Positions 4,531 to 15,653 of a stretch of DNA of 64,000 nt are shown in pieces. Position 1 is the first letter of the stretch, and every line of letters starts with the position of its first letter. The notes beneath the pieces were generated by a model. It was given only the letters and a program-made list of their open reading frames with translations. It was not told the DNA's origin and searched no databases. Source of the stretch: Phycisphaerae bacterium (GTDB taxonomy: Bacteria > Planctomycetota > Phycisphaerae > WQYP01); contig DASZTO010000096.1 of NCBI GenBank assembly GCA_035548175.1, positions 9,454 through 73,453 on the forward strand, read 5' to 3'. A program made the position numbers and the translations under genes.

Positions 4531-5586
4531 ATGGCACACGACATTCTGACCACGGTGATCGGCAGCTATCCCACGCCCGACTGGCTCATCCACCATCCGA
4601 CGGAAGGGGCGCTGCGGGACGCGATGCTGGTGGTGCTCAAGACGCAGGAGATCGCGGGGATCGACCTGCTGACGGACGGGGAATTGAACCGGTACGACAT
4701 CAACCATCCCGAGACGAACGGGATGATCGATTATTTCATCCGGCCGCTGCAGAACGTGCGGGGGGATGTGACGCGGGCGGAGGAAAAGAAGTACGCGGAG
4801 CTGACGTATCTGCGGTTCCGGCACAAACCGGCGGGGGTGGTGGAGGGGCAGCTGGGCGAGGGGCGGCTGAACCTGGCGCATGATTTCGACAAGGTGCGGG
4901 AGTTGACGGCGCGGCCTCTGAAATTCACGGTGACCAGCCCGTACATGCTGGGGCGGACGCTGCTGGATAGGCATTACAAATCGAAGGAGGCGCTGGTGGC
5001 GGCGCTGGCGGATGTGCTGGCGGCGCAGCTTCGGGAGGTGGATGCGGAGGTGGTGCAGGTGTCGGAGGAGAACCTGACGGGGAATCCCGGGGATGGGCCG
5101 TGGGTTGCCGAGGCGCTGAACCGGATGTTCGCGGTGGTGCCGCGGAAGGCGGCGTTGCATTTGTGCTTTGGGAATTATGCTGGGCAGGTGGTGCAGACGG
5201 GGCATTATTCGCAGCTTGTGGATTTTCTGAATTTGCTGAACGTGGATCACGTGCTGCTGGAGCTGGCGTATCGGGGCCCGGACGAGCTGACGTTTTTGAA
5301 AGACATCAAGCCGGAGATAGGGATCGGGATCGGGGTGATCGACATCAAGTCGACGGTGGTGGAATCGCCGGACGACGTGGCGCGGGCGATCGAGCGTGCG
5401 GACCGGGTGCTGGGAGCGGGGCGTTTGAAATATGTTCACCCGGACTGCGGGTTCTGGATGCACAAGCGGTCGGTGGCGGACGCGAAGATGGCGAACATGG
5501 TGAAGGGGCGGGATTTATTTCTGGGGCAGGCCAACGGTGCGCCGCGTGAAGAGGCGGCTGCGGAGGAGCGGTACGCGGAGGCGTGA
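4531..5586 (+). CDS. MetE-like cobalamin-independent methionine synthase family protein (stand-alone catalytic-domain type)
   Basis: ORF 4492..5586 (TTG). ATG at 4531 preceded by AAGGAG. ILTTVIGSYPTPDWL... resembles the short MetE/UroD-like family (~350 aa). Confidence 0.75.
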   Translation: MAHDILTTVIGSYPTPDWLIHHPTEGALRDAMLVVLKTQEIAGIDLLTDGELNRYDINHPETNGMIDYFIRPLQNVRGDVTRAEEKKYAELTYLRFRHKPAGVVEGQLGEGRLNLAHDFDKVRELTARPLKFTVTSPYMLGRTLLDRHYKSKEALVAALADVLAAQLREVDAEVVQVSEENLTGNPGDGPWVAEALNRMFAVVPRKAALHLCFGNYAGQVVQTGHYSQLVDFLNLLNVDHVLLELAYRGPDELTFLKDIKPEIGIGIGVIDIKSTVVESPDDVARAIERADRVLGAGRLKYVHPDCGFWMHKRSVADAKMANMVKGRDLFLGQANGAPREEAAAEERYAEA

Positions 5587-5627
5587 GGATGGCGGGGCGG
5601 GGGGATGTCGGGCGCGGGCTGGAGGGG

Positions 5628-6551
5628 TCAGGGTTCGCTGGGGCGGAAGGCGATGATGCAGCGGGGGAGCTTGGCGGCGTCTTTGATGATGCGGACTTTT
5701 TCGAGCCAGCCGGCGGCTTCGAGGAGGGCGGTGAGGGCGGGACCCTGGTCGAGCTGCATTTCCATGATGAGGAGGCCTCCGGGATGGAGATGGTGGCGCG
5801 CTCCGGCGACGATGCGGCGGTGGAAGTCGAGGCCGTCGGCGCCGCCGTCGAGGGCGAGGCGTGGCTCATGGTCGCGGATACCGGGGGGCAGGCGCGGGAG
5901 GTCGTCGGAGGGGATGTAGGGGGGATTGGAGGCGATGACGTGGAAGAGGGCGGGGGCGGGCATGTGCTCGATGGCGGCAAAGAGGTCGCCCTGGAAGAAG
6001 GAGACCGGTGCGGGGGGCGTTCCACCGACGGCGTTGGCGTCGGCGTTTTTCCGCGCGAGGTCGAGGGCGGGGGCGGAGATGTCGGTGGCGACGAGTGCGG
6101 CGGTGGGCAGATGTTTGGCGAGGGCGATGGCGATGGCGCCCGAGCCGGTGCAGAGGTCGAGGATGCGCGGGGAGTTTTGGGCGGCCCAATCGGGGCGCTG
6201 GCGGGCGTGCTGGATGACGAACTCGACGAGGGTTTCGGTGTCGGGGCGGGGAATGAGGACGTCGCGGGAGACGGCGAGCTCGAGGGAAAAGAACCAGGCC
6301 TTGCCGATGAGGTAGGCGACGGGGACGTGGCTGGAGCGCTGTTTGACGAGGTCGCGGAAGGCGGCGATCTGGGCGTCGGGGGGCACGCGTTCGTACTGGG
6401 TGTAAAGGGCCATGCGGGAACAATTGAGGACGTGGGCGAGGAGCAGTTCGGCGGAGAGGCGAGGCTCGTCGATATTTTTGCGGGCGAAGAAATCGGTTGT
6501 CCATGTGAGGAGGGAACCGATGGTCCAGACTTGGGCGGGAGGGGTGGCCAT
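5628..6551 (-). CDS. prmC: Release factor glutamine methyltransferase PrmC/HemK
   Basis: C-terminal 308 aa of ORF 5628..7706. DLCTGSGAIAIALA SAM motif and the NPPY substrate motif (IASNPPYIPS). ATG is the complement of 6549-6551. Confidence 0.85.
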   Translation of the reverse strand: MATPPAQVWTIGSLLTWTTDFFARKNIDEPRLSAELLLAHVLNCSRMALYTQYERVPPDAQIAAFRDLVKQRSSHVPVAYLIGKAWFFSLELAVSRDVLIPRPDTETLVEFVIQHARQRPDWAAQNSPRILDLCTGSGAIAIALAKHLPTAALVATDISAPALDLARKNADANAVGGTPPAPVSFFQGDLFAAIEHMPAPALFHVIASNPPYIPSDDLPRLPPGIRDHEPRLALDGGADGLDFHRRIVAGARHHLHPGGLLIMEMQLDQGPALTALLEAAGWLEKVRIIKDAAKLPRCIIAFRPSEP

Positions 6552-6689
6552 GGGGGGGTTGTAACATCCGCAGAGGGAAGGTTCTACTGCGCCGGGGAGC
6601 GGCGCGGGGGAGCGGGCCTGGCGGCGTGGCGGGCGAGGTGCGGGGGAGCGGCGGCGTGGTATGATGGGGCCGATCCGAATGGGAGCGCT

Positions 6690-7451
6690 ATGAGCGACGA
6701 GCGACCGCCGACAGAAGCAGCGGGAGGGGCGGGAGGAGGGCAGCCGGGCGGCCCGGCGGAACGAGCGACGGCCGTGGCTTCGGCGGCTTCGGCGGTGCAG
6801 ACGGTGGGGGCGTCGGCGAGCGCCCCCGCGGCGCAGGCGCAGCGTCCGCCGATGTGGGGGCGGCGTTACGGATTTCTGTGCTCGTACTGTTCGTCGCGGC
6901 TGGAGGCGGTGGAATCGATGGCGGGTCAATCGGGGACATGCCCGACGTGCGGGAACACGATTCTGATACCGATTCTCAATGCGCGTGGGCAGCTGATCGA
7001 TCCGACGTCGGGGAAGATCATCAAGCAGGATCCGCATCCGGTGCACGCGTATGCGGCGGCGGGGCATAAGGCGCCGCAGATCGTTGCGATGCCCAACGGG
7101 GAGCGGCAGATCCGGTGCCCGCGCTGTCAGCGGCTGAATCCGCTGGCGATGAACAACTGCCTGGGGTGCGGGCTGCCGTTCACGATGGAGGGGACGGCGG
7201 GGGATGCGATGTCGGGGACGAACACGTGGGCGGTGGCGTCGCTGGTGCTGGGGATCGTGTCGCTGGTGGGGGGCATGTGCCTGATCGTACCGCCGGTGCT
7301 GGCGATCATTTTTGCGTTCATGGCATTGCGGACGAACACGTCGCCGTCGGGGCAATCGAGCGGGCAGGGGATGGCGATCGCGGGCCTGATCCTGGGGATT
7401 GTGGGAGCCGTGATCGGGTCGTTGATGTGGGTGAAGATGATTTCGTGAGGA
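6690..7451 (+). CDS. Zinc-ribbon (CxxC x4) plus C-terminal transmembrane (DUF4190-like) protein
   Basis: Real C-terminal part of ORF 5583..7448. CSYCSS...CPTCGN and CPRCQR...CLGCG zinc ribbons, then two TM helices. G-ending codon bias as in neighbouring + genes. Confidence 0.6.
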
Positions 7452-7479
7452 GGCGGGCGGGGCCTGGCAGGAGATCGCG

Positions 7480-8031
7480 ATGAGTGGAACGGATCGAGCG
7501 GGGGGAGCGGCGTTTGCGGGCGGAGGGGGTAGCGCGGCGCCGCTGGGTCCGGTGGCGCGCGTCGGGAACACGGCATTTGCGACGTCGGTGGCGTTGCTGC
7601 TGGTGCGGTTGTCGCTGGGGTGGGCGTTTGTGTTCCATGGGGCGCAGAAGCTGTTTGGGGCGTTTGACGGGCCGGGGATCGAGAAATTCTCGAAGTACCT
7701 GCACATGCCGGGGTTTCTGCCGGCGATCGCGTGGGCGTACGTTGCGGCGCTCGCGGAGTTTATGGGCGGCGCGCTGGTGCTGATCGGGCTGCTGACGCGA
7801 CTGGCGACGATTCCGATAATGATTGTGATGTTCGTGGCGATTGCGACGGTGACGGGGGCGAGCGGTTTTTCGGTGCCGCAGGGTTATGAGTACAACGTGG
7901 CGCTGATCGCGATGGCGGGTGCGTTGCTGATAGCGGGTCCGGGGCTGGTGTCAGTGGATGCGTTGGTGTTTCGGCGCGGGCTGTGGGCGCGGGGCGCGCA
8001 GCCGCTGGATCAACCGCTGCGGCGGGTGTGA
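7480..8031 (+). CDS. DoxX-family membrane protein
   Basis: 183 aa, four TM segments, [22 protein letters not shown] DoxX signature. AGGAG SD upstream of the ATG. Confidence 0.75.
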
Positions 8032-8128: not shown

Positions 8129-9166
8129 ATGAACATGCTCGCTGCCGCACCGCCGGATTCGAACACGCTGGTGTGGATCGGGATACTGATCGTGGGGGCG
8201 ATCGCGCTGGTGGTGGTGATGGTGATCGCGCAGTTTTTCAGCCTGTGGCTGCAGGCGTTCTCGGCGGGGGCGGGGGTGAGCTATTTCCAGCTGATCGGGA
8301 TGCGGTTTCGGAAGGTGGATTCGCGGCAGATCGTGACGTCGCGCATCACGGCGGTTCAGGCGGGGCTGACGGAGCTGACGACGAGCCTGCTGGAATCGCA
8401 CTATCTGGCGGGGGGTCGTGTGCCCAACGTGGTGCGGGCGATGATCGCGGCGCACCGGGCGGACATCGAGCTGCCGTGGAACCGGGCGGCGGCGATCGAT
8501 CTTGCGGGTCGCGACGTGCTGGATGCGGTGCAGACGTCGGTGAATCCGAAGGTGATCGACGTGCCCAACGCGCAGTCGGGTCGGCAGACGATCGACGGGG
8601 TGGCGAAGGACGGGATTCAGCTGAAGGTCAAGGCGCGGGTGACGGTTCGGACGAACATTCAGCAGTTGATCGGCGGCGCGACGGAAGAAACCGTGATCGC
8701 GCGCGTGGGCGAAGGCATTGTGACGTCGATCGGTTCGTCCGACACGTACAAGCATGTGATGGAGAACCCGGATGCGATCTCCAAAACCGTGCTGCACAAA
8801 GGTCTGGATGCGGGGACGGCGTTCGAGATACTGTCGATCGATATCGCGGACGTGGACGTTGGGGACAATGTGGGGGCGAAGCTGCAGGCGGACCAGGCGG
8901 AATCTGACAAGCGGCGATTCCAGGCGGAGGCGGAGAAACGGCGTGCGCTGGCGGTGGCGCAGGAGCAGGAGTTTACGGCGTTGGCGCAGCAGAATCGCGC
9001 GAAGGTGATCGAGGCCGAGGCGCAGATTCCGCTGGCGATGGCGGAAGCGTTTCGCGCGGGGCACCTGGGGATCATGGATTACTACAAGATGCGCAACATT
9101 CAGGCGGACACGGCGATGCGCGACAGCCTTGGCGCCGATCGTCCCGACCAGAGCCCGCGGGCGTGA
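8129..9166 (+). CDS. floA: Flotillin-like protein FloA (UPF0365/YqfA)
   Basis: N-terminal TM, then conserved FloA core ([28 protein letters not shown] ... [18 protein letters not shown]). ATG at 8129 inside ORF 7958..9166. Confidence 0.85.
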
Positions 9167-9235: not shown

Positions 9236-10693
9236 ATGGGGCAGACGGCGGCGGCGGGGAGGCGGGTATTTTCGAGCGCGGTTCAGGGGCCGCGGCTGAC
9301 GGCCATGGTGTGGGCGCTGGCGGCGGTGGGGTCGTTCCACGCGGCGTATGCGATGCCGGCGTTTTTTCCGCTGATGGTGATATTTGCTGCGGGGACTGCC
9401 GGCGCGGCGTGGATTGACAGCGCGCGGGGCGCTTTCTGGCTGGGGCTGGGGATTGGTTTTGCGATATACGCTCCGCACCTGTTTTTCTTCGCGCGCATTT
9501 TTCACTTTTTCGCCATCTCGCTGTGGCTGATTCTGGCGGTGTGGGTGGGTTTCTTTGTTCTTCTGGCGCACTACGCGCGGCGGCGCTTTCCGCGCTGGGC
9601 GAGCCTGGTGATCTTTCCGATCCTGTGGATGGGGCTGGAGTATTTCCGGAGCGAACTTTATCCGCTGCGTTTCGCGTGGCTCACGCCGGGCCTGGCGTTT
9701 CCGCCGGAGGGCGCGGCGGGGGTCGTGGGGGTGTATGGCATCGGCGGGTTGCTGATGCTGCTGGCGACGGGGGCGCTGCTGGTTGGGCGCGCGTGGAGAT
9801 TCCCGGCACTGGCGGCGGCCGTGGCGATTGTGGGGTGCGCGCCGCTGCTGGATCGTGGGGGAGAGGGCGGGCGTGCGGGGGCAGGTCGCACCGGGCCGTT
9901 GATCGTGGGGATTCAGTCCGCGGCGGTTCCCGGCTGCCTGGACCGGGCGCTGGCGGCCTATCCGAACGCCGACCTGTTCATCCTGAGCGAATACAGCTTT
10001 CAGACTCCGCCGCCGTCGGCGGTGCGGGCGTGGTGCGCGGCGCATCAGAAATATCTGCTGGCCGGGGGCATTCGCTATCTCGATCCGGGTCCGGGCGTAC
10101 CTCGGGACGCCTTTCGCGACACGGCTTTTGTGGTGGGGCCGGACGGCTCACTCGTTTTCGAGCAGGCCAAATCCGTGCCGATTCAATTCATGTCGGACGG
10201 CCTTCCGGCGGCGGGGCAGCAACTCTGGCATTCGCCGTGGGGCGACATTGGGGTGTGCATCTGCTACGACCTGAGTTACACGCGGGTGACGGATCGGCTG
10301 GTGAAGCTGGGCGCGACGATGCTCATCGTGCCGGCCATGGATGTGACGTCGTGGGGACTGCACGAACACCAACTGCACGCGCGGATCGGACCGATGCGGG
10401 CTGCGGAATATGGCATACCGGTGGTGCGCGTGTGCAGCTCGGGTATTTCGCAGATCATCGATCGGTCGGGGCAGGTCACGGCGAGCGCTCCGTTCCCCGG
10501 GCCGGGCGCGATGCTGGCGGGGAGGGTTGCGATGGGCGCGACGGGGCGGCTTCCGGCGGATCGCGTGGCGGCTCGGTGGTGCGCGTGGGCGGCGATTGGT
10601 GATGGGGTGGTGGAGCTGTCGCTGGCGGCGCGGCGTCGTGTGGCGGATTCCCGGATGGGGCGGCGAAAAGCGCTGGCGGTAACGCCGGGCTGA
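9236..10693 (+). CDS. lnt: Apolipoprotein N-acyltransferase (Lnt), catalytically intact copy
   Basis: Polytopic N-domain with WMGLEYFRSEL plus a CN-hydrolase domain. Candidate E-K-C triad retained by alignment (ILSEYSF, EQAKSVP, VCICYD). Confidence 0.8.
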   Translation: MGQTAAAGRRVFSSAVQGPRLTAMVWALAAVGSFHAAYAMPAFFPLMVIFAAGTAGAAWIDSARGAFWLGLGIGFAIYAPHLFFFARIFHFFAISLWLILAVWVGFFVLLAHYARRRFPRWASLVIFPILWMGLEYFRSELYPLRFAWLTPGLAFPPEGAAGVVGVYGIGGLLMLLATGALLVGRAWRFPALAAAVAIVGCAPLLDRGGEGGRAGAGRTGPLIVGIQSAAVPGCLDRALAAYPNADLFILSEYSFQTPPPSAVRAWCAAHQKYLLAGGIRYLDPGPGVPRDAFRDTAFVVGPDGSLVFEQAKSVPIQFMSDGLPAAGQQLWHSPWGDIGVCICYDLSYTRVTDRLVKLGATMLIVPAMDVTSWGLHEHQLHARIGPMRAAEYGIPVVRVCSSGISQIIDRSGQVTASAPFPGPGAMLAGRVAMGATGRLPADRVAARWCAWAAIGDGVVELSLAARRRVADSRMGRRKALAVTPG

Positions 10694-10755
10694 GGCCACA
10701 ATAGGCGGCGGGGGGAAGTCATATCGACCTGCGTGTGTTCACTTCAGAGGTATCC

Positions 10756-12291
10756 ATGGCGGAATCATCTGTTCCGGTTGTCTCGCCGACGCCCGCATCA
10801 CCCGCTCCGGCAGCGCGGCCGGCGCGGCGGATCAAGCCGGGCTCGATCTCGGTCATTCAGGGGCTGCTGCTGGTGATTGTGGGGTCGGGGAGTTTCGCGG
10901 CGGCGTTTATGGCGCCCAAGGCGGGACCGCTGATTGTGCTGTTCCTTTTCTGCGTGGCGCGATTGTGCCGGCAGGCGACGCCGGCGCGGGCTTTGGTTCT
11001 CGGGCTGCTTCTGGGCATTCTGGCGTATATCCCGCAGGCGTTCTATGCGGCGGGCGGCATGGGCCCGGGGGTGACGCTGACGATGGTCGCGTGGCCGCTC
11101 GGTGTCGCTGTGGTGGCGTGGATCGGGCATCTTGCGTGGCGCCGGGGTGCGGCGGGCCTTGGGCTGCTGATTCTTCCGTTCCTGTGGGTGGGCCTGGAAT
11201 ATGTGCTGACGGAAGTTTGCCCGCCGCAATGGGGCTGGCTGGACGCCGGCGTGGCGATGCCCGCGGAAGCGCTGCATCATCTGGTGGGGGTGTATGGGCT
11301 GGCGTTTATCCTGATGTTGATTGCCGCCATCACCGCGGGCGTGCGGGGGCTGCCGGGATTCATCGCGATGCTGGTGGCGATAGGCGCGTCGTGGGGGTTG
11401 TCGCTGTGGCAACTGCCTGCGTCCGGGGCGGCGGCGGTGGCGGCTTCGGCGGCGGCGAGCGCGCCGGCGGGAGGCGGGTTGCCGACGGTGGTGACTGTGC
11501 CGGGTCATTTCACGGCGCGGACAATCTCCGCCGCGCTGGCGGAAGCCGTCAAGGAGCACCCGGAGAGCGCGATCGTCGTGCTGCCGGATTATTCGCTGTC
11601 GCGCAACGATCCGGTCGTGCGGTGGGCTCAAAATCAGAAGAAATTCGTGGTCACCGCGACGCGTGAAGGTGATCGTCACTCCGGGCGGGCGACGGACATC
11701 CTGGTGGTCACCGATAGCAGGGGCGACACGGCGCTGGTGGTCAATCGGCAACTCGGGGCGGGGCCACCCGAGGACGCCGAGCCTGACCTGGCGGATACGC
11801 CGTGGGGGAAGATCGCGTTGATGCCGTTTCACGATTTGGCGCGTCGCTGGGATACGGACCGGTCGGTGAAAGCAGGGGCCAAGGCGTTCATCGTGCTGAA
11901 CCCTGACGCGGAGCCGGGCAACATTCAGATGCGTGAAGAGCGGACGCATCTGGCGGAGGTTCGCGCGGCCGAGTATGGGGTGCCGGTGGTGCGTGCGAGC
12001 ACGAGCGGGGTGTGCCAGCTCATTACGTCGCGTGGCGTGGTGAAGGAGTCTGTTGAGGCGGGGGCGCCTTTGGCGGGGACGTTGGACATGGCGGGGGATG
12101 CCGGCATACCGCTGGGCGGGCTGCTGGCTCCGGTGTGTCTGGGGATTGCGGTGGTGTATATTCTGGTGGAGCTGGTTCTGATCGCGCTGGCGGATCGCCG
12201 CGCCAAGGCGGTGGGGCGCTCGGGTTCCTCGGCGATGCCTCCTGCGGCCCCGCCTCCCCCGCCGCCGCCTTCTCCGCCGGCCGCAGTGTGA
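10756..12291 (+). CDS. Lnt-like paralogue lacking the catalytic triad (probable pseudoenzyme), with C-terminal TM plus poly-Pro tail
   Basis: Same architecture (LWVGLEYVLTE, C-terminal RAAEYGVPVVRASTSG). Aligned triad positions read VLPDYSL (E to D), VVNRQLG (K lost) and LMPFHD (C to F). Extra C-terminal TM and PPAAPPPPPPPSPPAAV tail. Confidence 0.75.
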   Translation: MAESSVPVVSPTPASPAPAARPARRIKPGSISVIQGLLLVIVGSGSFAAAFMAPKAGPLIVLFLFCVARLCRQATPARALVLGLLLGILAYIPQAFYAAGGMGPGVTLTMVAWPLGVAVVAWIGHLAWRRGAAGLGLLILPFLWVGLEYVLTEVCPPQWGWLDAGVAMPAEALHHLVGVYGLAFILMLIAAITAGVRGLPGFIAMLVAIGASWGLSLWQLPASGAAAVAASAAASAPAGGGLPTVVTVPGHFTARTISAALAEAVKEHPESAIVVLPDYSLSRNDPVVRWAQNQKKFVVTATREGDRHSGRATDILVVTDSRGDTALVVNRQLGAGPPEDAEPDLADTPWGKIALMPFHDLARRWDTDRSVKAGAKAFIVLNPDAEPGNIQMREERTHLAEVRAAEYGVPVVRASTSGVCQLITSRGVVKESVEAGAPLAGTLDMAGDAGIPLGGLLAPVCLGIAVVYILVELVLIALADRRAKAVGRSGSSAMPPAAPPPPPPPSPPAAV

Positions 12292-12321: not shown

Positions 12322-12825
12322 ATGGCCGACATTCCCCGCGATCCCCGGCAGCTGGCGCGAGACATCCTTGCCGGGAAGATTTCTCTGGAAGATGTGGCGC
12401 GCGAGCAGGCGCGCCGCGCGGGCCTGCCGCCGCCGCAGGCGCGTCCGGGGGGCATTCAGCGGCAGAAGCTTCCGGATCGCATTCCGTTGCCGCGGCAACT
12501 ACCGCAGCAGCCGGTGCGTCGTCCGCCGCCGCCTCAACCGGTGCGTCAACCGCAGTCCCGCAAAGCGGCGCCGCCCGCGCCGCAACGTCGGCCAGCATCG
12601 CGGTCGTTTCCCCCCTCCGGGCCGCCGCCGGCGCCTCCGGCCGCGAATTTGCCCGTGCCCGCTCGCCAGGCGCTCGCGCCTCTCGCAGCCGCCGTTCCTC
12701 CGGTATCGCCGATGCGGTCGAGCCGTTCGTCGATCCGGCAGAACCTCCGCACTCCGGCCACGCTTCGCCAGGCGATCCTGCTGGCGGAAATCCTCGGGCC
12801 GCCCGTGGCGCTGCGCGAAAGCTGA
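12322..12825 (+). CDS. Hypothetical proline-rich protein
   Basis: ORF 12307..12825. ATG at 12322. G-ending codon bias matches flanking + genes. Low-complexity PQ/PR-rich sequence, no domain recognised. Confidence 0.35.
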   Translation: MADIPRDPRQLARDILAGKISLEDVAREQARRAGLPPPQARPGGIQRQKLPDRIPLPRQLPQQPVRRPPPPQPVRQPQSRKAAPPAPQRRPASRSFPPSGPPPAPPAANLPVPARQALAPLAAAVPPVSPMRSSRSSIRQNLRTPATLRQAILLAEILGPPVALRES

Positions 12826-12833
12826 CTCGCCGC

Positions 12834-15173
12834 TCACTCGCCCGCCCGCTTCGCCAACTCCGCCTCCATCCGCGCAATCTCCGCATGCATCTGCGCCACA
12901 TGCGCCTTGTACCCTGGCGGTTCCTCCGGCCCGTTCGGCCCCGCTATGTACGGTCCGTGCGGCACTGTTGCCAATGTCTCCATTTGCTCCTGAAGCTTTC
13001 TAATCCCCGCCGCCAGGTCCTGCGTCGACAGGTTCTCGACATCCGCCGGCTGGGTGGCCGCCGCCAGATGCGACGAGAGGGCCCGCAACTGCGCCGCCTG
13101 CTCCGCCAGCATGGACATCTTCGCGGCGCTGACGTCATCCGCGCGCCCCTTCAGTGCTTCCAACTCCCGCTGGAGTTTCTCCAGTTGGTCTCGCGCCCTT
13201 GCCGCCTCGAGCTGCGTCGCCGCCGGCTGCTCGTTCGCACGGGCGGCCGCTCCCGCCGCACCATCCGCCGCCGGCTCCGTCGCGATATGGTCGAAAGTCG
13301 TCCATTCGATCGGGCGGGACTGAAAGCGGAAGGTCTTGATTTCCTTCCGCGTCGCCCCTTCCAGGTACGCACTCACCTGCCACAACGATCCCTGCCGTCC
13401 CGTCGCACCGGTCGTCATCGGATGCTCGCTGCCGTCCACGAACACGGCCACCACGCGCATGTCCGCGTTCGCCATCGTGTAGGCCATCCGTATTTCGATG
13501 TGCGGCTCAACCGCCATCCCCGCGCCGCCCATCCGCCGTCCGCCGCCGCCTCCGCTTCCTTCAAGCGGCGGCGCCGGTTCATAGACCACCGGATCGCCGA
13601 TCACATATGTTCCCGTATCTGTCTTGCCCGATTGTGCATGATCGCCCTCAGCAAACGTCTTCCACGCCGACCGCGCAATGCCCACCAAGACCGCCGTGTT
13701 GCCCGCGGCCGGGTACTTGAACTCGTAATACGCATCCATCGGCCCCGCCGGCATCGTCGAATTCTCCGCCACCCGCGACAAAAGCCTCAGGTCCGACGCA
13801 TCGCGTACCGCGCTGCCCTGCCGCAACTCCACCACGGGGAACGACACGTCCGGACTTTCCTGATGCACCTTCAGGATACACAGCCGGCCCGCGTCATCCG
13901 TCGGTCCCGGATAGATCGACCCCGGCAGCAACGTGGGCTGCCCATCCACGGTCCAGAAGGGCCCGCCGGCATTCGCCCCCACCGCGATGATCGACACCCA
14001 TCCCGCCGGCAACGCCGCTTCACTTACCGCCCCCGCCGCCGGATTACCCGCTTCCTTCTTCGCGGCTGCCCGCGGCGCAGGCTGGTCAGACGATGCCGGC
14101 GGCGCCGCCGTCAAAGTCGCCAGCCCCGCCGTGACCCCCAGCGTCGCCACGGCCAGCGCCACCAGCGCCGACCTCCCAATCGCCCCGCGCCGCCCCTGCG
14201 GTCGAAGCACCGCCCGAATTCGACTCTCCAACGACGACGGCCGGGCCATGGACACGGCTGAATAACGCATGAGCGGTCTCCTTTGATAGGTCAACGCCAT
14301 TTCCAGAAGCGTGTGTGCGTAGCCCGGGGCATCCACTCCGCGGCCAATCACCAGGTCGTCGCACGCTTTTTCCCGTTCGATTTCCATCTGCCGCACGGCC
14401 ACCCACGCCAGCGGGTGAGGCCAATAGACCGCCCGCGCCAAGAGCGCCAGAGCCTGGGTCGGCAAGTCGCGGCGGCGCGCATGGGCCAGTTCGTGCAGCA
14501 AGACGGCGTGCAACTGCTCTTCCGGCCAGTCCGCGGCGCCGAGCGGCAAAACAATCGCGGGCCGCAGCAACCCGACCGCCACCGGCATCTTCCACGCATC
14601 GCTCACCACCACGCGCACACGCCGCGCCATGCCCAGCGCCTGATGAGCCCGGGCCACCGGCCCCTCCTCCAATTCGCAAGCCGGAAGACGGCGTAGCGCC
14701 CGGCGCACGCGCCACGGCGCCATCAGCAGCGGCACGCTGAAAAGAATCACGCCCGCTGCATACACGCACGCTAAAATCAGCAGCCAGTCGATCGATGCCT
14801 TCACCGGGACGAACGACGGCAGCGCTCCGTTCGCGGCAGGCGGCGGATTGACAAGGCTCGGCGCGGCCGGCGCGCCAGTCGCGGCTTCAGGCGTGGGATT
14901 GAGCGGGGACGGATGTAACACGTCGGCAGGCTGAGGCGCCGCCGCCTGCGGCCGTGCATCGTGCCGCACCGGCACAATCCGCACCGCCGGCAGCACCACC
15001 ATCATCGCCGGCAGAAGCAGCAGCCCCGCCATCGCCGACGTCCAGCACGCATGGCGGCTTGCGGCCGTGGCGCGCCGCAGTAGGACCGTCGCCATGCCCG
15101 CCGCCGCCAGCAGGCATGTGGACTTCACCGCGATCTCCGCCAGCGCGCGCACCTGTATGAAATCAATCGCCAT
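12834..15173 (-). CDS. BlaR1/MecR1-family M56 peptidase sensor with long coiled-coil/low-complexity C-terminal domain (no PBP domain)
   Basis: N-terminal TM helices and the HExxH zinc motif LLHELAHARRRD typical of peptidase M56. C-terminal ~450 aa are coiled-coil-rich. ATG is the complement of 15171-15173, overlapping the blaI stop by 11 nt. Confidence 0.8.
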   Translation of the reverse strand: MAIDFIQVRALAEIAVKSTCLLAAAGMATVLLRRATAASRHACWTSAMAGLLLLPAMMVVLPAVRIVPVRHDARPQAAAPQPADVLHPSPLNPTPEAATGAPAAPSLVNPPPAANGALPSFVPVKASIDWLLILACVYAAGVILFSVPLLMAPWRVRRALRRLPACELEEGPVARAHQALGMARRVRVVVSDAWKMPVAVGLLRPAIVLPLGAADWPEEQLHAVLLHELAHARRRDLPTQALALLARAVYWPHPLAWVAVRQMEIEREKACDDLVIGRGVDAPGYAHTLLEMALTYQRRPLMRYSAVSMARPSSLESRIRAVLRPQGRRGAIGRSALVALAVATLGVTAGLATLTAAPPASSDQPAPRAAAKKEAGNPAAGAVSEAALPAGWVSIIAVGANAGGPFWTVDGQPTLLPGSIYPGPTDDAGRLCILKVHQESPDVSFPVVELRQGSAVRDASDLRLLSRVAENSTMPAGPMDAYYEFKYPAAGNTAVLVGIARSAWKTFAEGDHAQSGKTDTGTYVIGDPVVYEPAPPLEGSGGGGGRRMGGAGMAVEPHIEIRMAYTMANADMRVVAVFVDGSEHPMTTGATGRQGSLWQVSAYLEGATRKEIKTFRFQSRPIEWTTFDHIATEPAADGAAGAAARANEQPAATQLEAARARDQLEKLQRELEALKGRADDVSAAKMSMLAEQAAQLRALSSHLAAATQPADVENLSTQDLAAGIRKLQEQMETLATVPHGPYIAGPNGPEEPPGYKAHVAQMHAEIARMEAELAKRAGE

Positions 15174-15570
15174 GAGAACCTCCTCGCATCGGAGCCTGTT
15201 CCCGCGCCTCGGCAATCAGGGCTGCGAGGCGATCGGCTTCTGCGGGTGAAAGTTTGCTCGCGGGGTCTGCGAAATGCGCTGCCAGGGCCTTTTCCACGCT
15301 TCCTCCGAAGAATGTTTCGAGGACCCGCCGGAGTGCCGATTTGCCGACCTTCTCCCGCGCCCGGACGGGCCGATAGACAAACGCCCGCCCGCGTTTTTCG
15401 TGCGTGAGGAGTCCCTTGTCCTCGAGGATGCGCAGGAACGTTCGGACGGCTGTGCGGGTGGGCGCGTCCTTCAGGCCGGCATGAACCTCATCCGCGGTCG
15501 CTTCTTCGCGCGCGTAGACGACATCCATAATCTGCCGTTCCCGGCGAGAGAGCTCAGGAGAATCCGCCAT
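15163..15570 (-). CDS. BlaI/MecI/CopY-family transcriptional repressor
   Basis: 135 aa, winged-helix Penicillinase_R pattern (SRRERQIMDVVYAREEATADEV...TFLRILEDKGLLTHEKRGRAFVYRP). Sits upstream of and overlapping the M56 gene. Confidence 0.85.
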   Translation of the reverse strand: MADSPELSRRERQIMDVVYAREEATADEVHAGLKDAPTRTAVRTFLRILEDKGLLTHEKRGRAFVYRPVRAREKVGKSALRRVLETFFGGSVEKALAAHFADPASKLSPAEADRLAALIAEAREQAPMRGGSHGD

Positions 15571-15598
15571 GCGAGGGCTCCGAATGTAGACGCACAAC

Positions 15599-15653
15599 TG
15601 CCAAAATATTGGCACATCCGCGGCATGTCAAGCAAAATGTCAAAATTTTGGCA
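15599..15653. promoter_or_regulatory. Two near-palindromic 16-bp dyads (TGCCAAAATATTGGCA, TGTCAAAATTTTGGCA), candidate BlaI-family operators
   Basis: Dyads at 15599-15614 and 15638-15653, 39 bp centre to centre, in the AT-rich region just upstream of blaI. Consensus TGNCAAAAT-ATTTTGNCA. Confidence 0.4.

What the first reader, a model, noticed from the sequence alone, without database searches (positions are those of the whole stretch)
9236..12291. Tandem Lnt paralogues, the second apparently a catalytically dead pseudoenzyme with an added TM/poly-proline tail
Both genes share the Lnt architecture (polytopic N-domain plus CN-hydrolase domain) and align along their length. The nitrilase-type E-K-C triad is preserved in the first copy (ILSEYSF, EQAKSVP, VCICYD). 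In the second copy the aligned positions read D, no K, and F (VLPDYSL, VVNRQLG, LMPFHD). A degenerate Lnt retained next to the active one suggests a regulatory or scaffolding partner, or a substrate-binding decoy, in lipoprotein maturation. It sits beside floA, a DoxX-family gene and a BlaR1-like sensor.
Basis: partly seen in the sequence, partly recalled or inferred. Interest (0 to 1): 0.55.

Follow-up and report, generated by a model that had tools for sequence, protein, structure and literature searches.

The report
Active Lnt-like enzyme with dead twin
Two neighbouring genes in an uncultured Phycisphaerae bacterium encode look-alike membrane lipoprotein acyltransferases; the second has lost its catalytic cysteine and most active-site residues yet is kept by selection, so it is most likely a non-catalytic helper of the first.

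Summary
Copy 1 (9236-10693) and copy 2 (10756-12291) are full-length paralogues: 29% identity, E=1e-32. Both AlphaFold models match solved Lnt over about 510 columns, with eight membrane helices plus a nitrilase domain.

Copy 1 keeps E252, K312 and C343. Copy 2 has D278, R331 and F358 at those positions.

Copy 2 is not a decaying gene. An exhaustive search of 1.84 billion representatives found four more copy-2-type clusters (34-65% identity), and all lack the cysteine (F or L). Each lies directly after an intact copy-1-type gene. dN/dS against an orthologue is 0.23.

Copy 2 kept only 39 of the 109 positions that are ≥90% conserved in the copy-1 family. The paired copy 1 kept 96 of 98.

One detail of the finding is wrong: the C-terminal helix is not added. 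It is the canonical last Lnt helix, and copy 1 has it too. Only the proline-rich tail is specific to copy 2.

The pair sits in floA–copy1–copy2–small proline-rich gene, an arrangement confined to a narrow Phycisphaerae clade. A partner or scaffold role with copy 1 is the best reading, but it is inferred, not shown.

The nearest precedents are the mycobacterial C387S second Lnt homologue and Streptomyces Lnt2. This is a new variant of a known kind, of moderate interest.

The parts
9236..10693 (+). Copy 1: Lnt-like membrane acyltransferase, 485 aa, with an intact E252-K312-C343 triad. It belongs to a large PVC-clade family.
   Evidence: Pfam CN_hydrolase 2e-10. TIGR00546 79 bits, below the 132.9 cut-off. 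hhalign family profile vs E. coli Lnt: 97% probability, 435 columns. AF2 pLDDT 92, and Foldseek top 24 hits are all Lnt with TM 0.68-0.73. More than 2649 homologues, mostly 42-50% identical.
10756..12291 (+). Copy 2: Lnt-fold paralogue without the catalytic triad (D278, R331, F358), 511 aa. It has eight TM helices, a nitrilase-like domain and a proline-rich cytoplasmic tail. The mechanical ORF starts at GTG 10735.
   Evidence: BLASTP vs copy 1: 29% identity, E=1e-32. No Pfam hit, and TIGR00546 31 bits. AF2 pLDDT 86.8, pTM 0.87. Foldseek top 24 hits are all Lnt, E about 2e-14, TM 0.56-0.66. Start site.
9989..9991 (+). Copy 1 Glu252 codon (GAA), equivalent to E. coli Lnt E267.
10169..10171 (+). 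Copy 1 Lys312 codon (AAA), the presumed catalytic lysine. It aligns to the Lys of the HRK motif of mouse Nit2.
10262..10264 (+). Copy 1 Cys343 codon (TGC), equivalent to the E. coli Lnt C387 nucleophile.
11587..11589 (+). Copy 2 Asp278 codon (GAT) at the catalytic Glu position.
11746..11748 (+). Copy 2 Arg331 codon (CGG) at the catalytic Lys position.
11827..11835 (+). Copy 2 Phe358-His359-Asp360 (TTT CAC GAT), replacing the Cys-Tyr-Asp/Glu motif. The clade motif is [FL]-[HR]-D.
12199..12291 (+). Copy 2 cytoplasmic tail after TM8, ending in a proline run (PPAAPPPPPPPSPPAAV).
8129..9166 (+). floA (flotillin-like, 345 aa), directly upstream on the same strand. In three related loci its stop overlaps the copy-1 start.
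   Evidence: Pfam FloA 1.5e-150. Synteny.
12322..12825 (+). Small proline-rich protein (167 aa, no TM, no Pfam hit), 30 nt after copy 2. Its N- and C-terminal helices are conserved. It probably closes the operon.
7480..8031 (+). DoxX-family membrane protein upstream of floA. An ORF of the same length sits at this position in the closest genome (not scanned there); in more distant loci the gene there is HpiC1-like.
12834..15215 (-). BlaR1-type M56 peptidase/sensor, convergent with the operon. The public gene call is 779 aa.
15163..15615 (-). BlaI/MecI-type repressor upstream of the sensor gene. The public gene call is 135 aa.

Best explanation
A tandem duplication in one Phycisphaerae lineage produced two Lnt-type inner-membrane proteins.

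Copy 1 kept everything its family conserves. It is the working acyltransferase, presumably N-acylating lipoproteins through a Cys343 thioester, as E. coli Lnt does.

Copy 2 kept the eight-helix membrane domain, the nitrilase core and the contact region between them. It lost the nucleophile (Cys->Phe) and the general base (Glu->Asp), changed the Lys to Arg, and lost most active-site loops. It therefore cannot carry out thioester-based acyl transfer.

Copy 2 is still made and maintained. It is probably co-transcribed with floA, copy 1 and a small proline-rich cytoplasmic protein.

I infer that copy 2 works as a non-catalytic membrane partner of copy 1: a scaffold or modulator that sits beside the active enzyme, possibly within a flotillin-organised patch. 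Its cytoplasmic proline-rich tail could be a docking site.

Shown here: the paralogy, the fold, the loss of the triad, purifying selection, and the conserved adjacency.

Inferred: physical or functional coupling to copy 1, and that copy 1 is this organism's lipoprotein N-acyltransferase.

Triad and active site:
- The triad is lost in copy 2 and kept in copy 1.
- 232 of 240 family members that cover all three triad columns read E-K-C.
- Copy 2 keeps only 39 of 109 family-conserved columns, while paired copy 1 keeps 96 of 98.
- The low-pLDDT stretches of the copy-2 model fall on the active-site loops (residue blocks 331-340 and 381-400), which are confident in copy 1.

Maintenance by selection:
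- dN/dS is 0.23 overall, 0.17 in the membrane domain and 0.20 in the nitrilase domain, against an orthologue at dS 1.1.
- Five copy-2-type clusters at 34-65% identity all lack the Cys.

Linkage to copy 1:
- Every copy-2-type gene with visible context follows a copy-1-type gene on the same strand, with gaps of 12-62 nt.
- No terminator signal above background lies between the genes.
- Both genes have a purine-rich Shine-Dalgarno-like stretch upstream.

Single origin:
- The copy-2 clade is monophyletic in 40/40 NJ bootstraps and the paired copy-1 clade in 39/40. The two are sisters in the best tree and have similar internal branching.
- They share derived residues, including a Glu inside TM8 where singletons have Leu.

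Precedent:
- Second Lnt homologues that do not replace Lnt are known: BCG_2279c (C387S) and S. scabies Lnt2 (PMC3850990).
Against: - Nothing here shows that the two proteins touch each other. E. coli Lnt is, to my knowledge, monomeric in its solved structures.
- Adjacency alone is what a tandem duplication leaves behind, so it is weak evidence for joint function. Persistence over this much divergence does strengthen it.
- The sister relationship of the two clades has only 10/40 NJ bootstrap support. A long branch may be distorting the tree.
- Copy 2 evolves faster than copy 1: within-clade distance 0.92 vs 0.57, and dN/dS 0.23 vs 0.085.
- Only about five clusters are known, all from metagenomes.
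- Copy 1 is below the NCBIfam Lnt cut-off, and no member of its family has been assayed as far as I could find.
- I could not check whether the genome has another, canonical lnt.
Confidence: 0.5

Rival explanations
1. Copy 2 has taken on a new function that does not depend on copy 1. It could be a lipid- or lipoprotein-binding membrane protein. It could also be an enzyme with different chemistry built around the clade-conserved [FL]-His-Asp motif and the retained acidic residue at the old Glu position. On this reading the tandem position only records its origin.
For: The stem branch is long and 70 of 109 conserved positions have been replaced. There are new clade-invariant residues: H174, W122, T247, R364 and the His359/Asp360 pair. 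At least one other Cys-less member of the same PVC family, P0189, stands alone rather than in tandem.
Against: No conserved candidate nucleophile replaces the Cys. The Cys in the CPPQW motif is absent in two of the five clusters. The adjacency to copy 1 never breaks in any locus seen. The active-site loops are poorly ordered in the model.
Confidence: 0.25
2. Copy 2 mainly serves the flotillin module. On this reading it is a polytopic membrane anchor whose proline-rich tail and membrane domain tie FloA and the small proline-rich cytoplasmic protein to the site where lipoproteins mature.
For: The order floA-copy1-copy2-small protein is conserved, and the floA stop overlaps the copy-1 start in three loci. 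In a more distant Phycisphaerales genome, floA is followed directly by the small protein with no Lnt genes. The pair therefore looks inserted into an older floA-small protein unit.
Against: The small protein also occurs alone, away from floA. Copy-1-type singletons are not next to floA. No interaction data exist. Insertion into an operon can be fortuitous.
Confidence: 0.15
3. Copy 2 is still an acyltransferase and uses another residue as nucleophile.
For: It retains the Asp equivalent to E. coli E389, an acidic residue at the Glu position and a basic residue at the Lys position. According to PMC3850990, an E. coli C387S Lnt mutant still forms an acyl-enzyme but shows no detectable Lnt activity.
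Against: The residue at the nucleophile position is Phe or Leu, not Ser. The surrounding conserved loops are gone.
Confidence: 0.05
4. Copy 2 is a gene on its way to being lost and has no function.
For: It evolves faster than copy 1, and its catalytic residues are gone.
Against: The frame is intact in all five clusters despite divergence to 34% identity. dN/dS is 0.23 at near-saturated dS. The model of a complete fold is confident. The position and the start context are conserved.
Confidence: 0.03

Closest known systems
Apolipoprotein N-acyltransferase Lnt (E. coli b0657, P. aeruginosa; PDB 5N6H, 5XHQ, 5VRG, 6NWR, 8B0K)
   Same: Both copies have an eight-helix membrane domain with a periplasmic nitrilase-type domain between the last two helices. 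The full-length structural match has TM 0.6-0.7. Copy 1 has the Glu-Lys-Cys triad and the Cys-Tyr-acidic motif.
   Different: Sequence identity is only 13-20%. Both score below the TIGR00546 cut-off. Copy 2 has Asp/Arg/Phe at the triad positions and has lost most conserved active-site positions. Lnt is normally a single gene and, to my knowledge, is monomeric in the solved structures.
Mycobacterium bovis BCG_2279c (M. tuberculosis Rv2262c/Rv2261c), a second Lnt homologue with C387S
   Same: It is a second Lnt homologue in a genome that also has a working Lnt. Its catalytic cysteine is replaced, and it cannot substitute for Lnt. The authors proposed a contributory role (PMC3850990).
   Different: It has a single Cys->Ser change and keeps the other two triad residues. 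Nothing in the passages I read places it next to the active lnt gene. It is split by a frameshift in M. tuberculosis. Here the whole active site has degenerated, the replacement is Phe or Leu, and the gene is always adjacent to the active copy.
Streptomyces scabies Lnt1/Lnt2
   Same: There are two Lnt homologues. One is sufficient and required, and the other is subsidiary but needed for efficient N-acylation (as summarised in PMC3850990).
   Different: As summarised in PMC3850990, the S. scabies Lnts are not missing an essential catalytic residue, in contrast to BCG_2279c.
Mycobacterial/corynebacterial Ppm1-Lnt (Ppm2) pairing
   Same: PMC3850990 describes Rv2051c/BCG_2070c as a two-domain protein with an Lnt domain and a Ppm-like domain, the latter homologous to a separate M. 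smegmatis gene. From my own knowledge, not checked here, the Lnt-type membrane protein also acts as a membrane partner for the Ppm synthase. That would be a precedent for a scaffolding role of the Lnt fold.
   Different: The partner there is an unrelated glycosyltransferase, and the Lnt domain remains catalytically active.
AatD, the Lnt-like acyltransferase of the enteroaggregative E. coli Aat system
   Same: From my own knowledge it is an Lnt homologue recruited to a task other than general lipoprotein maturation. The paper itself (10.1101/2020.09.23.310854) was only listed, not read.
   Different: As I recall, AatD keeps the catalytic triad and is an active enzyme. It is not paired with a dead copy.

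Membership tests
Lnt (apolipoprotein N-acyltransferase, TIGR00546 / COG0815): copy 1 | Polytopic membrane domain (eight helices) with a nitrilase-type domain between TM7 and TM8 | tested here: met
   hhalign vs E. coli Lnt: 97% probability over 435 columns. The AF2 model has seven N-terminal helices, an alpha/beta domain and a C-terminal helix. Foldseek top 24 hits are all Lnt, TM 0.68-0.73.
Lnt (apolipoprotein N-acyltransferase, TIGR00546 / COG0815): copy 1 | Glu-Lys-Cys catalytic triad (E. coli E267/K335/C387) | tested here: met
   E252 and C343 fall in the E267 and C387 columns. K312 aligns to the Lys of the HRK motif of mouse Nit2. The direct alignment to K335 failed in both tools.
Lnt (apolipoprotein N-acyltransferase, TIGR00546 / COG0815): copy 1 | Score above the curated equivalog cut-off | tested here: not met
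   79.4 bits against a cut-off of 132.9. NCBI names the protein 'nitrilase-related carbon-nitrogen hydrolase'.
Lnt (apolipoprotein N-acyltransferase, TIGR00546 / COG0815): copy 1 | N-acylation of diacylglyceryl-Cys lipoproteins using a phospholipid donor | not testable with these tools
   This needs complementation or an in vitro assay. I found no paper on PVC Lnt.
Lnt: copy 2 | Lnt architecture and fold | tested here: met
   AF2 pLDDT 86.8, with eight TM helices and an alpha/beta domain. Foldseek top 24 hits are all Lnt, about 510 aligned columns, TM 0.56-0.66.
Lnt: copy 2 | Glu-Lys-Cys catalytic triad | tested here: not met
   D278, R331 and F358. The Cys column reads F/F/F/L/F across the clade.
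Lnt: copy 2 | Other residues essential in E. coli (Y388, E389, W237, E343) | tested here: inconclusive
   Y388 -> His or Arg, and E389 -> Asp, which is retained. The W237 and E343 columns could not be aligned reliably.
Lnt: copy 2 | Score above the curated equivalog cut-off / Pfam CN_hydrolase hit | tested here: not met
   TIGR00546 31 bits against 132.9. No Pfam family at E<=0.01.
Pseudoenzyme (a retained, catalytically inactive paralogue of an enzyme) | Homology and fold of an enzyme family with the catalytic residues lost | tested here: met
Pseudoenzyme (a retained, catalytically inactive paralogue of an enzyme) | Maintained by purifying selection in several lineages | tested here: met
   dN/dS 0.23. 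Five clusters at 34-65% identity with intact frames.
Pseudoenzyme (a retained, catalytically inactive paralogue of an enzyme) | Demonstrated lack of activity and a demonstrated non-catalytic role | not testable with these tools
   This needs biochemistry and genetics.

The most novel reading that the evidence does not exclude
Lipoprotein N-acylation in this Phycisphaerae lineage is carried out by an obligate heteromer of one active and one dead Lnt subunit, encoded in a flotillin operon. That would be the first pseudoenzyme subunit described in the bacterial lipoprotein maturation pathway. It would also show that Lnt, to my knowledge seen only as a monomer in solved structures, can work as a two-subunit machine placed in a flotillin membrane patch.
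Probability: 0.25. Interest if true: 0.65.

Novelty: new variant of a known kind. Interest (0 to 1): 0.42.

Why it matters
Lnt catalyses the last step of lipoprotein maturation, and several of the papers found here describe the pathway's enzymes as antibiotic targets.

Second Lnt homologues with unclear roles are known in actinobacteria, but none has a settled function. Here the dead copy is unmistakable, because the whole active site has gone. It is also always adjacent to the live one and is kept by selection. That makes this a clean natural case for asking what a non-catalytic Lnt fold does: stabilising the enzyme, presenting substrate, or organising the membrane.

The finding also shows that the large PVC-clade Lnt-like family repeatedly gives rise to members without the cysteine.

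Its reach is limited for now. The pair is known from about five metagenomic clusters in one uncultured clade, and no member of the parent family has been assayed.

Tried and rejected
- Direct sequence searches of either copy against PDB chains did not reach Lnt. A 7-sequence profile did, at E about 1e-7.
- hhalign of the five-sequence copy-2 profile against E. coli Lnt gave only a short membrane-domain match at 7.8% probability. The link between copy 2 and Lnt therefore rests on copy 1 and on the structure search.
- Both MAFFT and hhalign misplace the catalytic Lys region relative to E. coli K335. I used the Nit2 alignment instead.
- The word-indexed search with copy 2 found only one orthologue, and the GTDB genome scan found one genome. 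The exhaustive HMM search was needed to find three more clusters.
- Literature searches for an Lnt pseudoenzyme or for Lnt in Planctomycetes/Verrucomicrobia found nothing relevant.
- One Pfam call failed on a wrong frame.
- The decaying-pseudogene idea was considered and rejected on selection and conservation.
- The idea that the extra TM is an addition was rejected on the two models.
- No lgt, lspA or lol genes were found among the nine flanking genes scanned.
- I could not test whether the genome has another lnt.
Full report
**What is in the window**

The window comes from a high-GC Phycisphaerae metagenome-assembled genome. The source names the copy-2 product 'MAG TPA: hypothetical protein VH253_19730 [Phycisphaerae bacterium]'.

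Two same-strand ORFs fill the reported interval: 9236-10693 (485 aa, copy 1) and 10735-12291. For copy 2 the real start is most likely ATG 10756 (511 aa). An AGAGG lies 7 nt upstream, the orthologues begin at the aligned Met, and the public gene call is 511 aa.

- DoxX at 7480-8031.
- FloA at 8129-9166, Pfam E=1.5e-150.
- A BlaR1-type M56 peptidase at 12834-15215 and a BlaI repressor at 15163-15615, both on the minus strand.

A 167-aa proline-rich ORF (12322-12825) follows copy 2 after 30 nt.

**Are the two proteins paralogues with the Lnt architecture? Yes.**

- BLASTP aligns them over 487 residues at 29% identity, E=1e-32.
- Copy 1 hits Pfam CN_hydrolase (2e-10). It hits TIGR00546 (lnt) at 79 bits, below the cut-off of 132.9. 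Copy 2 hits no Pfam family and reaches 31 bits on TIGR00546.
- A profile of the copy-1-type family aligns to E. coli Lnt over 435 columns at 97% probability.
- AlphaFold2 models are confident: copy 2 has pLDDT 86.8 and pTM 0.87, and copy 1 has pLDDT 92.1 and pTM 0.90.
- Each model shows seven N-terminal membrane helices, an alpha/beta domain and a long C-terminal helix.
- For both models the top 24 Foldseek hits in the PDB are all Lnt structures aligned over about 510 columns. TM-scores are 0.56-0.66 for copy 2 and 0.68-0.73 for copy 1. Soluble nitrilases follow, matching only the alpha/beta domain.

**The catalytic residues**

I took E. coli lnt (b0657) from MG1655 and confirmed that E267, K335, E343, C387, Y388 and E389 are at those positions. 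I then added it to a 56-sequence alignment.

| E. coli residue | Copy-1-type proteins | Five copy-2-type proteins |
|---|---|---|
| E267 | Glu in 51 of 51 | D, N, E, D, D |
| C387 | Cys in 51 of 51 | F, F, F, L, F |
| Y388 | Tyr | H, R, H, H, H |
| E389 | Asp | Asp |

The lysine needed a different route. Both MAFFT and hhalign misplace the region against E. coli K335. However, phmmer aligns copy 1 'LVFEQAK' to mouse Nit2 'LLVKHRK' and 'GVCICYD' to 'GLGICYD'. From my own knowledge this Nit2 Lys is the catalytic one, so K312 is very likely the catalytic lysine. K312 is ≥90% conserved in the family. Copy 2 has Arg there. The other clusters read R, R, K and L in the MAFFT alignment, while hmmalign puts Thr at that column for the fourth cluster.

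In window coordinates:
- Copy 1: E252 = 9989-9991, K312 = 10169-10171, C343 = 10262-10264.
- Copy 2: D278 = 11587-11589, R331 = 11746-11748, F358 = 11827-11829.

**One correction to the finding**

The C-terminal membrane helix of copy 2 is not an addition. It is the last helix (TM8) of the Lnt fold.

Copy 1 has the same helix in its model (residues 442-481). In this genome it is only weakly hydrophobic, because it carries Asp and Glu, which is probably why it was missed by eye.

The proline-rich tail after that helix is specific to copy 2. Other copy-2-type proteins have a tail of similar composition but different sequence.

**Is copy 2 a decaying gene? No.**

*Distribution.* An exhaustive HMM search of 1.84 billion representative proteins with a copy-2 profile found four further clusters that stand clear of the rest. 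They scored 1044, 388, 299 and 275 bits, and the next hit scored 156. They are 65, 42, 35 and 34% identical to copy 2, have intact frames, and all lack the cysteine.

*Selection.* I compared the window with the orthologous contig L001 using my own Nei-Gojobori script.

| Region | dN/dS |
|---|---|
| Copy 2, whole gene (dS 1.14) | 0.23 |
| Copy 2, membrane domain | 0.17 |
| Copy 2, nitrilase domain | 0.20 |
| Copy 1, C-terminal part | 0.085 |
| Small downstream gene | 0.11 |

*Extent of the change.* The loss goes well beyond the triad. Of 109 columns that are ≥90% conserved in the copy-1 family, the copy-2 clade keeps 39. The kept positions are mostly Gly, Pro and Trp core positions, the membrane-domain motif P..W.G.EY...E, and the RA.EY..P..R helix. 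The 70 changed columns include the loops around the active site. Those same loops are the low-confidence stretches of the copy-2 model (residue blocks 331-340 and 381-400) and are confident in copy 1.

*The active partner is intact.* The copy 1 proteins that sit next to a copy 2 keep 96 of the 98 columns conserved in singleton family members. The active partner has lost nothing, so this is not a case of two half-enzymes complementing each other.

**Genomic context in relatives**

Every copy-2-type gene whose surroundings could be read lies directly after a copy-1-type gene on the same strand, with gaps of 12-62 nt.

| Source | What is seen |
|---|---|
| Window and its near-identical contigs L002-L005 | FloA, copy 1, copy 2, small gene |
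| L001 | End of copy 1, then copy 2, then the small gene |
| L006 (GTDB genome SMAG_U6227) | ORFs matching DoxX and FloA in length and position, then copy 1 and copy 2 (the two copies aligned; the other ORFs not scanned) |
| L007 and L008 | Same pair order; L007 also has FloA, the small gene, BlaR1 and BlaI |
| P0128 contig | CN_hydrolase fragment, then copy 2 |
| L009 | Upstream fragment is the C-terminus of a copy-1-type protein |
| L011-L014 | FloA, copy 1, copy 2, small gene |

- In L007, L011, L012, L013 and L014 the order is FloA, copy 1, copy 2, then a small 151-164-aa gene, and the floA stop overlaps the copy-1 start. BlaR1 and BlaI are visible on the other strand in L007, L011 and L012.
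- In the window the gaps between the four genes are 69, 62 and 30 nt. Terminator-like sites in the region are no more frequent than in shuffled sequence.
- The nearest copy-1 homologue outside this group (P0013, 51%) is a singleton with neither FloA nor copy 2 beside it.

**Origin of the pair**

In a neighbour-joining tree the copy-2 clade is monophyletic in 40/40 bootstraps and the paired copy-1 clade in 39/40. They are sisters in the best tree, but with only 10/40 support, as expected for a long branch. Their internal branching is similar.

They share derived residues that are rare in singletons. These include His112/125, Pro143/156 and a Glu inside TM8 (E460 in copy 1, E472 in copy 2), where singletons have Leu.

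Together these point to one tandem duplication at the base of a narrow Phycisphaerae clade, followed by fast change in copy 2. The within-clade distance is 0.92 for copy 2 against 0.57 for copy 1.

**The parent family**

Copy 1 belongs to a large family with more than 2649 hits, mostly 42-50% identical. Those with names come from Verrucomicrobiota and Phycisphaerae. JGI calls them apolipoprotein N-acyltransferase, and NCBI calls them nitrilase-related hydrolase.

Of the family members that cover all three triad columns, 232 of 240 read E-K-C. I found no paper that tests any member. That copy 1 is this organism's Lnt is therefore an inference from fold, triad and family size, not a tested fact. 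I could not check the rest of the genome for another lnt.

**Most likely mechanism**

E. coli Lnt works by a ping-pong mechanism through a thioester on C387 (PMC10313180; PDB 6NWR is described as the thioester acyl-intermediate). With Phe at that position and the surrounding loops gone, copy 2 cannot do this.

Copy 2 is nevertheless retained in both its membrane and periplasmic domains. It is apparently co-expressed with a complete enzyme and has never been separated from it in any locus seen.

I therefore favour a non-catalytic partner role, as a scaffold or modulator beside copy 1, at confidence about 0.5. The pseudoenzyme status itself is much firmer, at about 0.9.

A decoy that binds substrate the way Lnt does seems less likely, given how much of the binding region has changed.

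The rivals are:
- An independent new function, possibly using the new conserved [FL]-His-Asp motif.
- A role centred on the flotillin module.
- Residual acyltransferase activity with another nucleophile.
- Simple decay, which is contradicted by the selection and conservation data.

**Comparison with known cases**

The closest precedents are second Lnt homologues in actinobacteria (PMC3850990):
- BCG_2279c carries C387S and cannot replace the working Lnt. Its authors suggested a contributory role.
- S. scabies Lnt2 is subsidiary to Lnt1.

From my own knowledge, the Lnt domain paired with Ppm synthase in mycobacteria is a precedent for the Lnt fold acting as a membrane partner.

What is different here is the complete degeneration of the active site, the Phe/Leu replacement, the strict tandem arrangement with the live copy across diverged genomes, and the link to floA. 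I found no description of such a pair.

**Verdict**

- The novelty is a new variant of a known kind.
- Interest is moderate. It is limited by the narrow, uncultured distribution and by the lack of any assay on the parent family.

Noticed in passing
window 12322-12825 (+); L017 1124-2791; L016 7001-7561: The 167-aa proline-rich protein after copy 2 has a strongly conserved N-terminal segment (DIPRDPRQLARDILAGKISLEDVAREQARRAG) and C-terminal segment (LRTPATLRQAILLAEIL). It has no Pfam match and 43 relatives; all the named ones are from Phycisphaerae. In a Phycisphaerales genome it follows floA directly with no Lnt genes between, so the Lnt pair looks inserted into an older floA-small protein unit. 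Elsewhere it occurs alone.
   Followed up: partly
L007 2103-3173/3173-4714; L011, L012, L013, L014 likewise: In the more distant paired loci the floA stop codon overlaps the copy-1 start, which suggests translational coupling of a flotillin with an Lnt-like enzyme. In the window the gap is 69 nt.
   Followed up: partly
proteins P0139, P0151, P0141, P0189; loci L018, L019, L020: Four other members of the PVC Lnt-like family lack the cysteine outside the copy-2 clade. Their triads read E-K-G (two proteins), E-K-S and E-A-F. P0189 (E-A-F) stands alone after a prepilin-type N-methylation-domain gene. P0141 (E-K-S) is followed, with overlapping stop and start, by a protein with an NHxxxxD motif, which I recognise as typical of PlsC-type acyltransferases. 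Loss of the nucleophile may therefore be recurrent in this family.
   Followed up: partly
window 10613-10615 (copy 1 E460) and 12169-12171 (copy 2 E472): Both partners carry a Glu in the middle of the last membrane helix (VVELSL / LVELVL), where singleton family members mostly have Leu. It is a shared derived feature and a candidate contact or functional site.
   Followed up: partly
window 10559-10640 (copy 1 residues about 442-468): The last membrane helix of copy 1 in this genome is unusually polar (RWCAWAAIGDGVVELSLAARRR; Kyte-Doolittle below 1.4). AlphaFold models it as a long helix with high confidence. The orthologue in L006 is more hydrophobic.
   Followed up: no
window 12834-15615 (-); L007 6945-9507; L011 6920-9482: A BlaI repressor and BlaR1-type M56 sensor-peptidase pair lies convergent to the operon. 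It stays there in genomes where copy 2 is only about 42% identical. This may be mere synteny or an envelope-stress link. The sensor has a long C-terminal region with no Pfam match.
   Followed up: no
window 1-64000: GC skew is very strong and changes sign in blocks: about +0.2 to +0.34 over 1-12 kb and 26-36 kb, and -0.24 to -0.38 over 46-64 kb. Over 1-16 kb and 26-36 kb it appears to follow the coding strand, but the 57-63 kb block does not fit, because my ORF picks there are on the + strand while the skew is about -0.35.
   Followed up: no
window 5583-7706: Long overlapping ORFs lie on both strands. The minus-strand ORF carries an NPPY methyltransferase motif, which I recognise as typical of PrmC/HemK. 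The plus-strand ORF ends in Cys-rich zinc-ribbon-like motifs followed by two hydrophobic helices. The true gene boundaries were not resolved.
   Followed up: no
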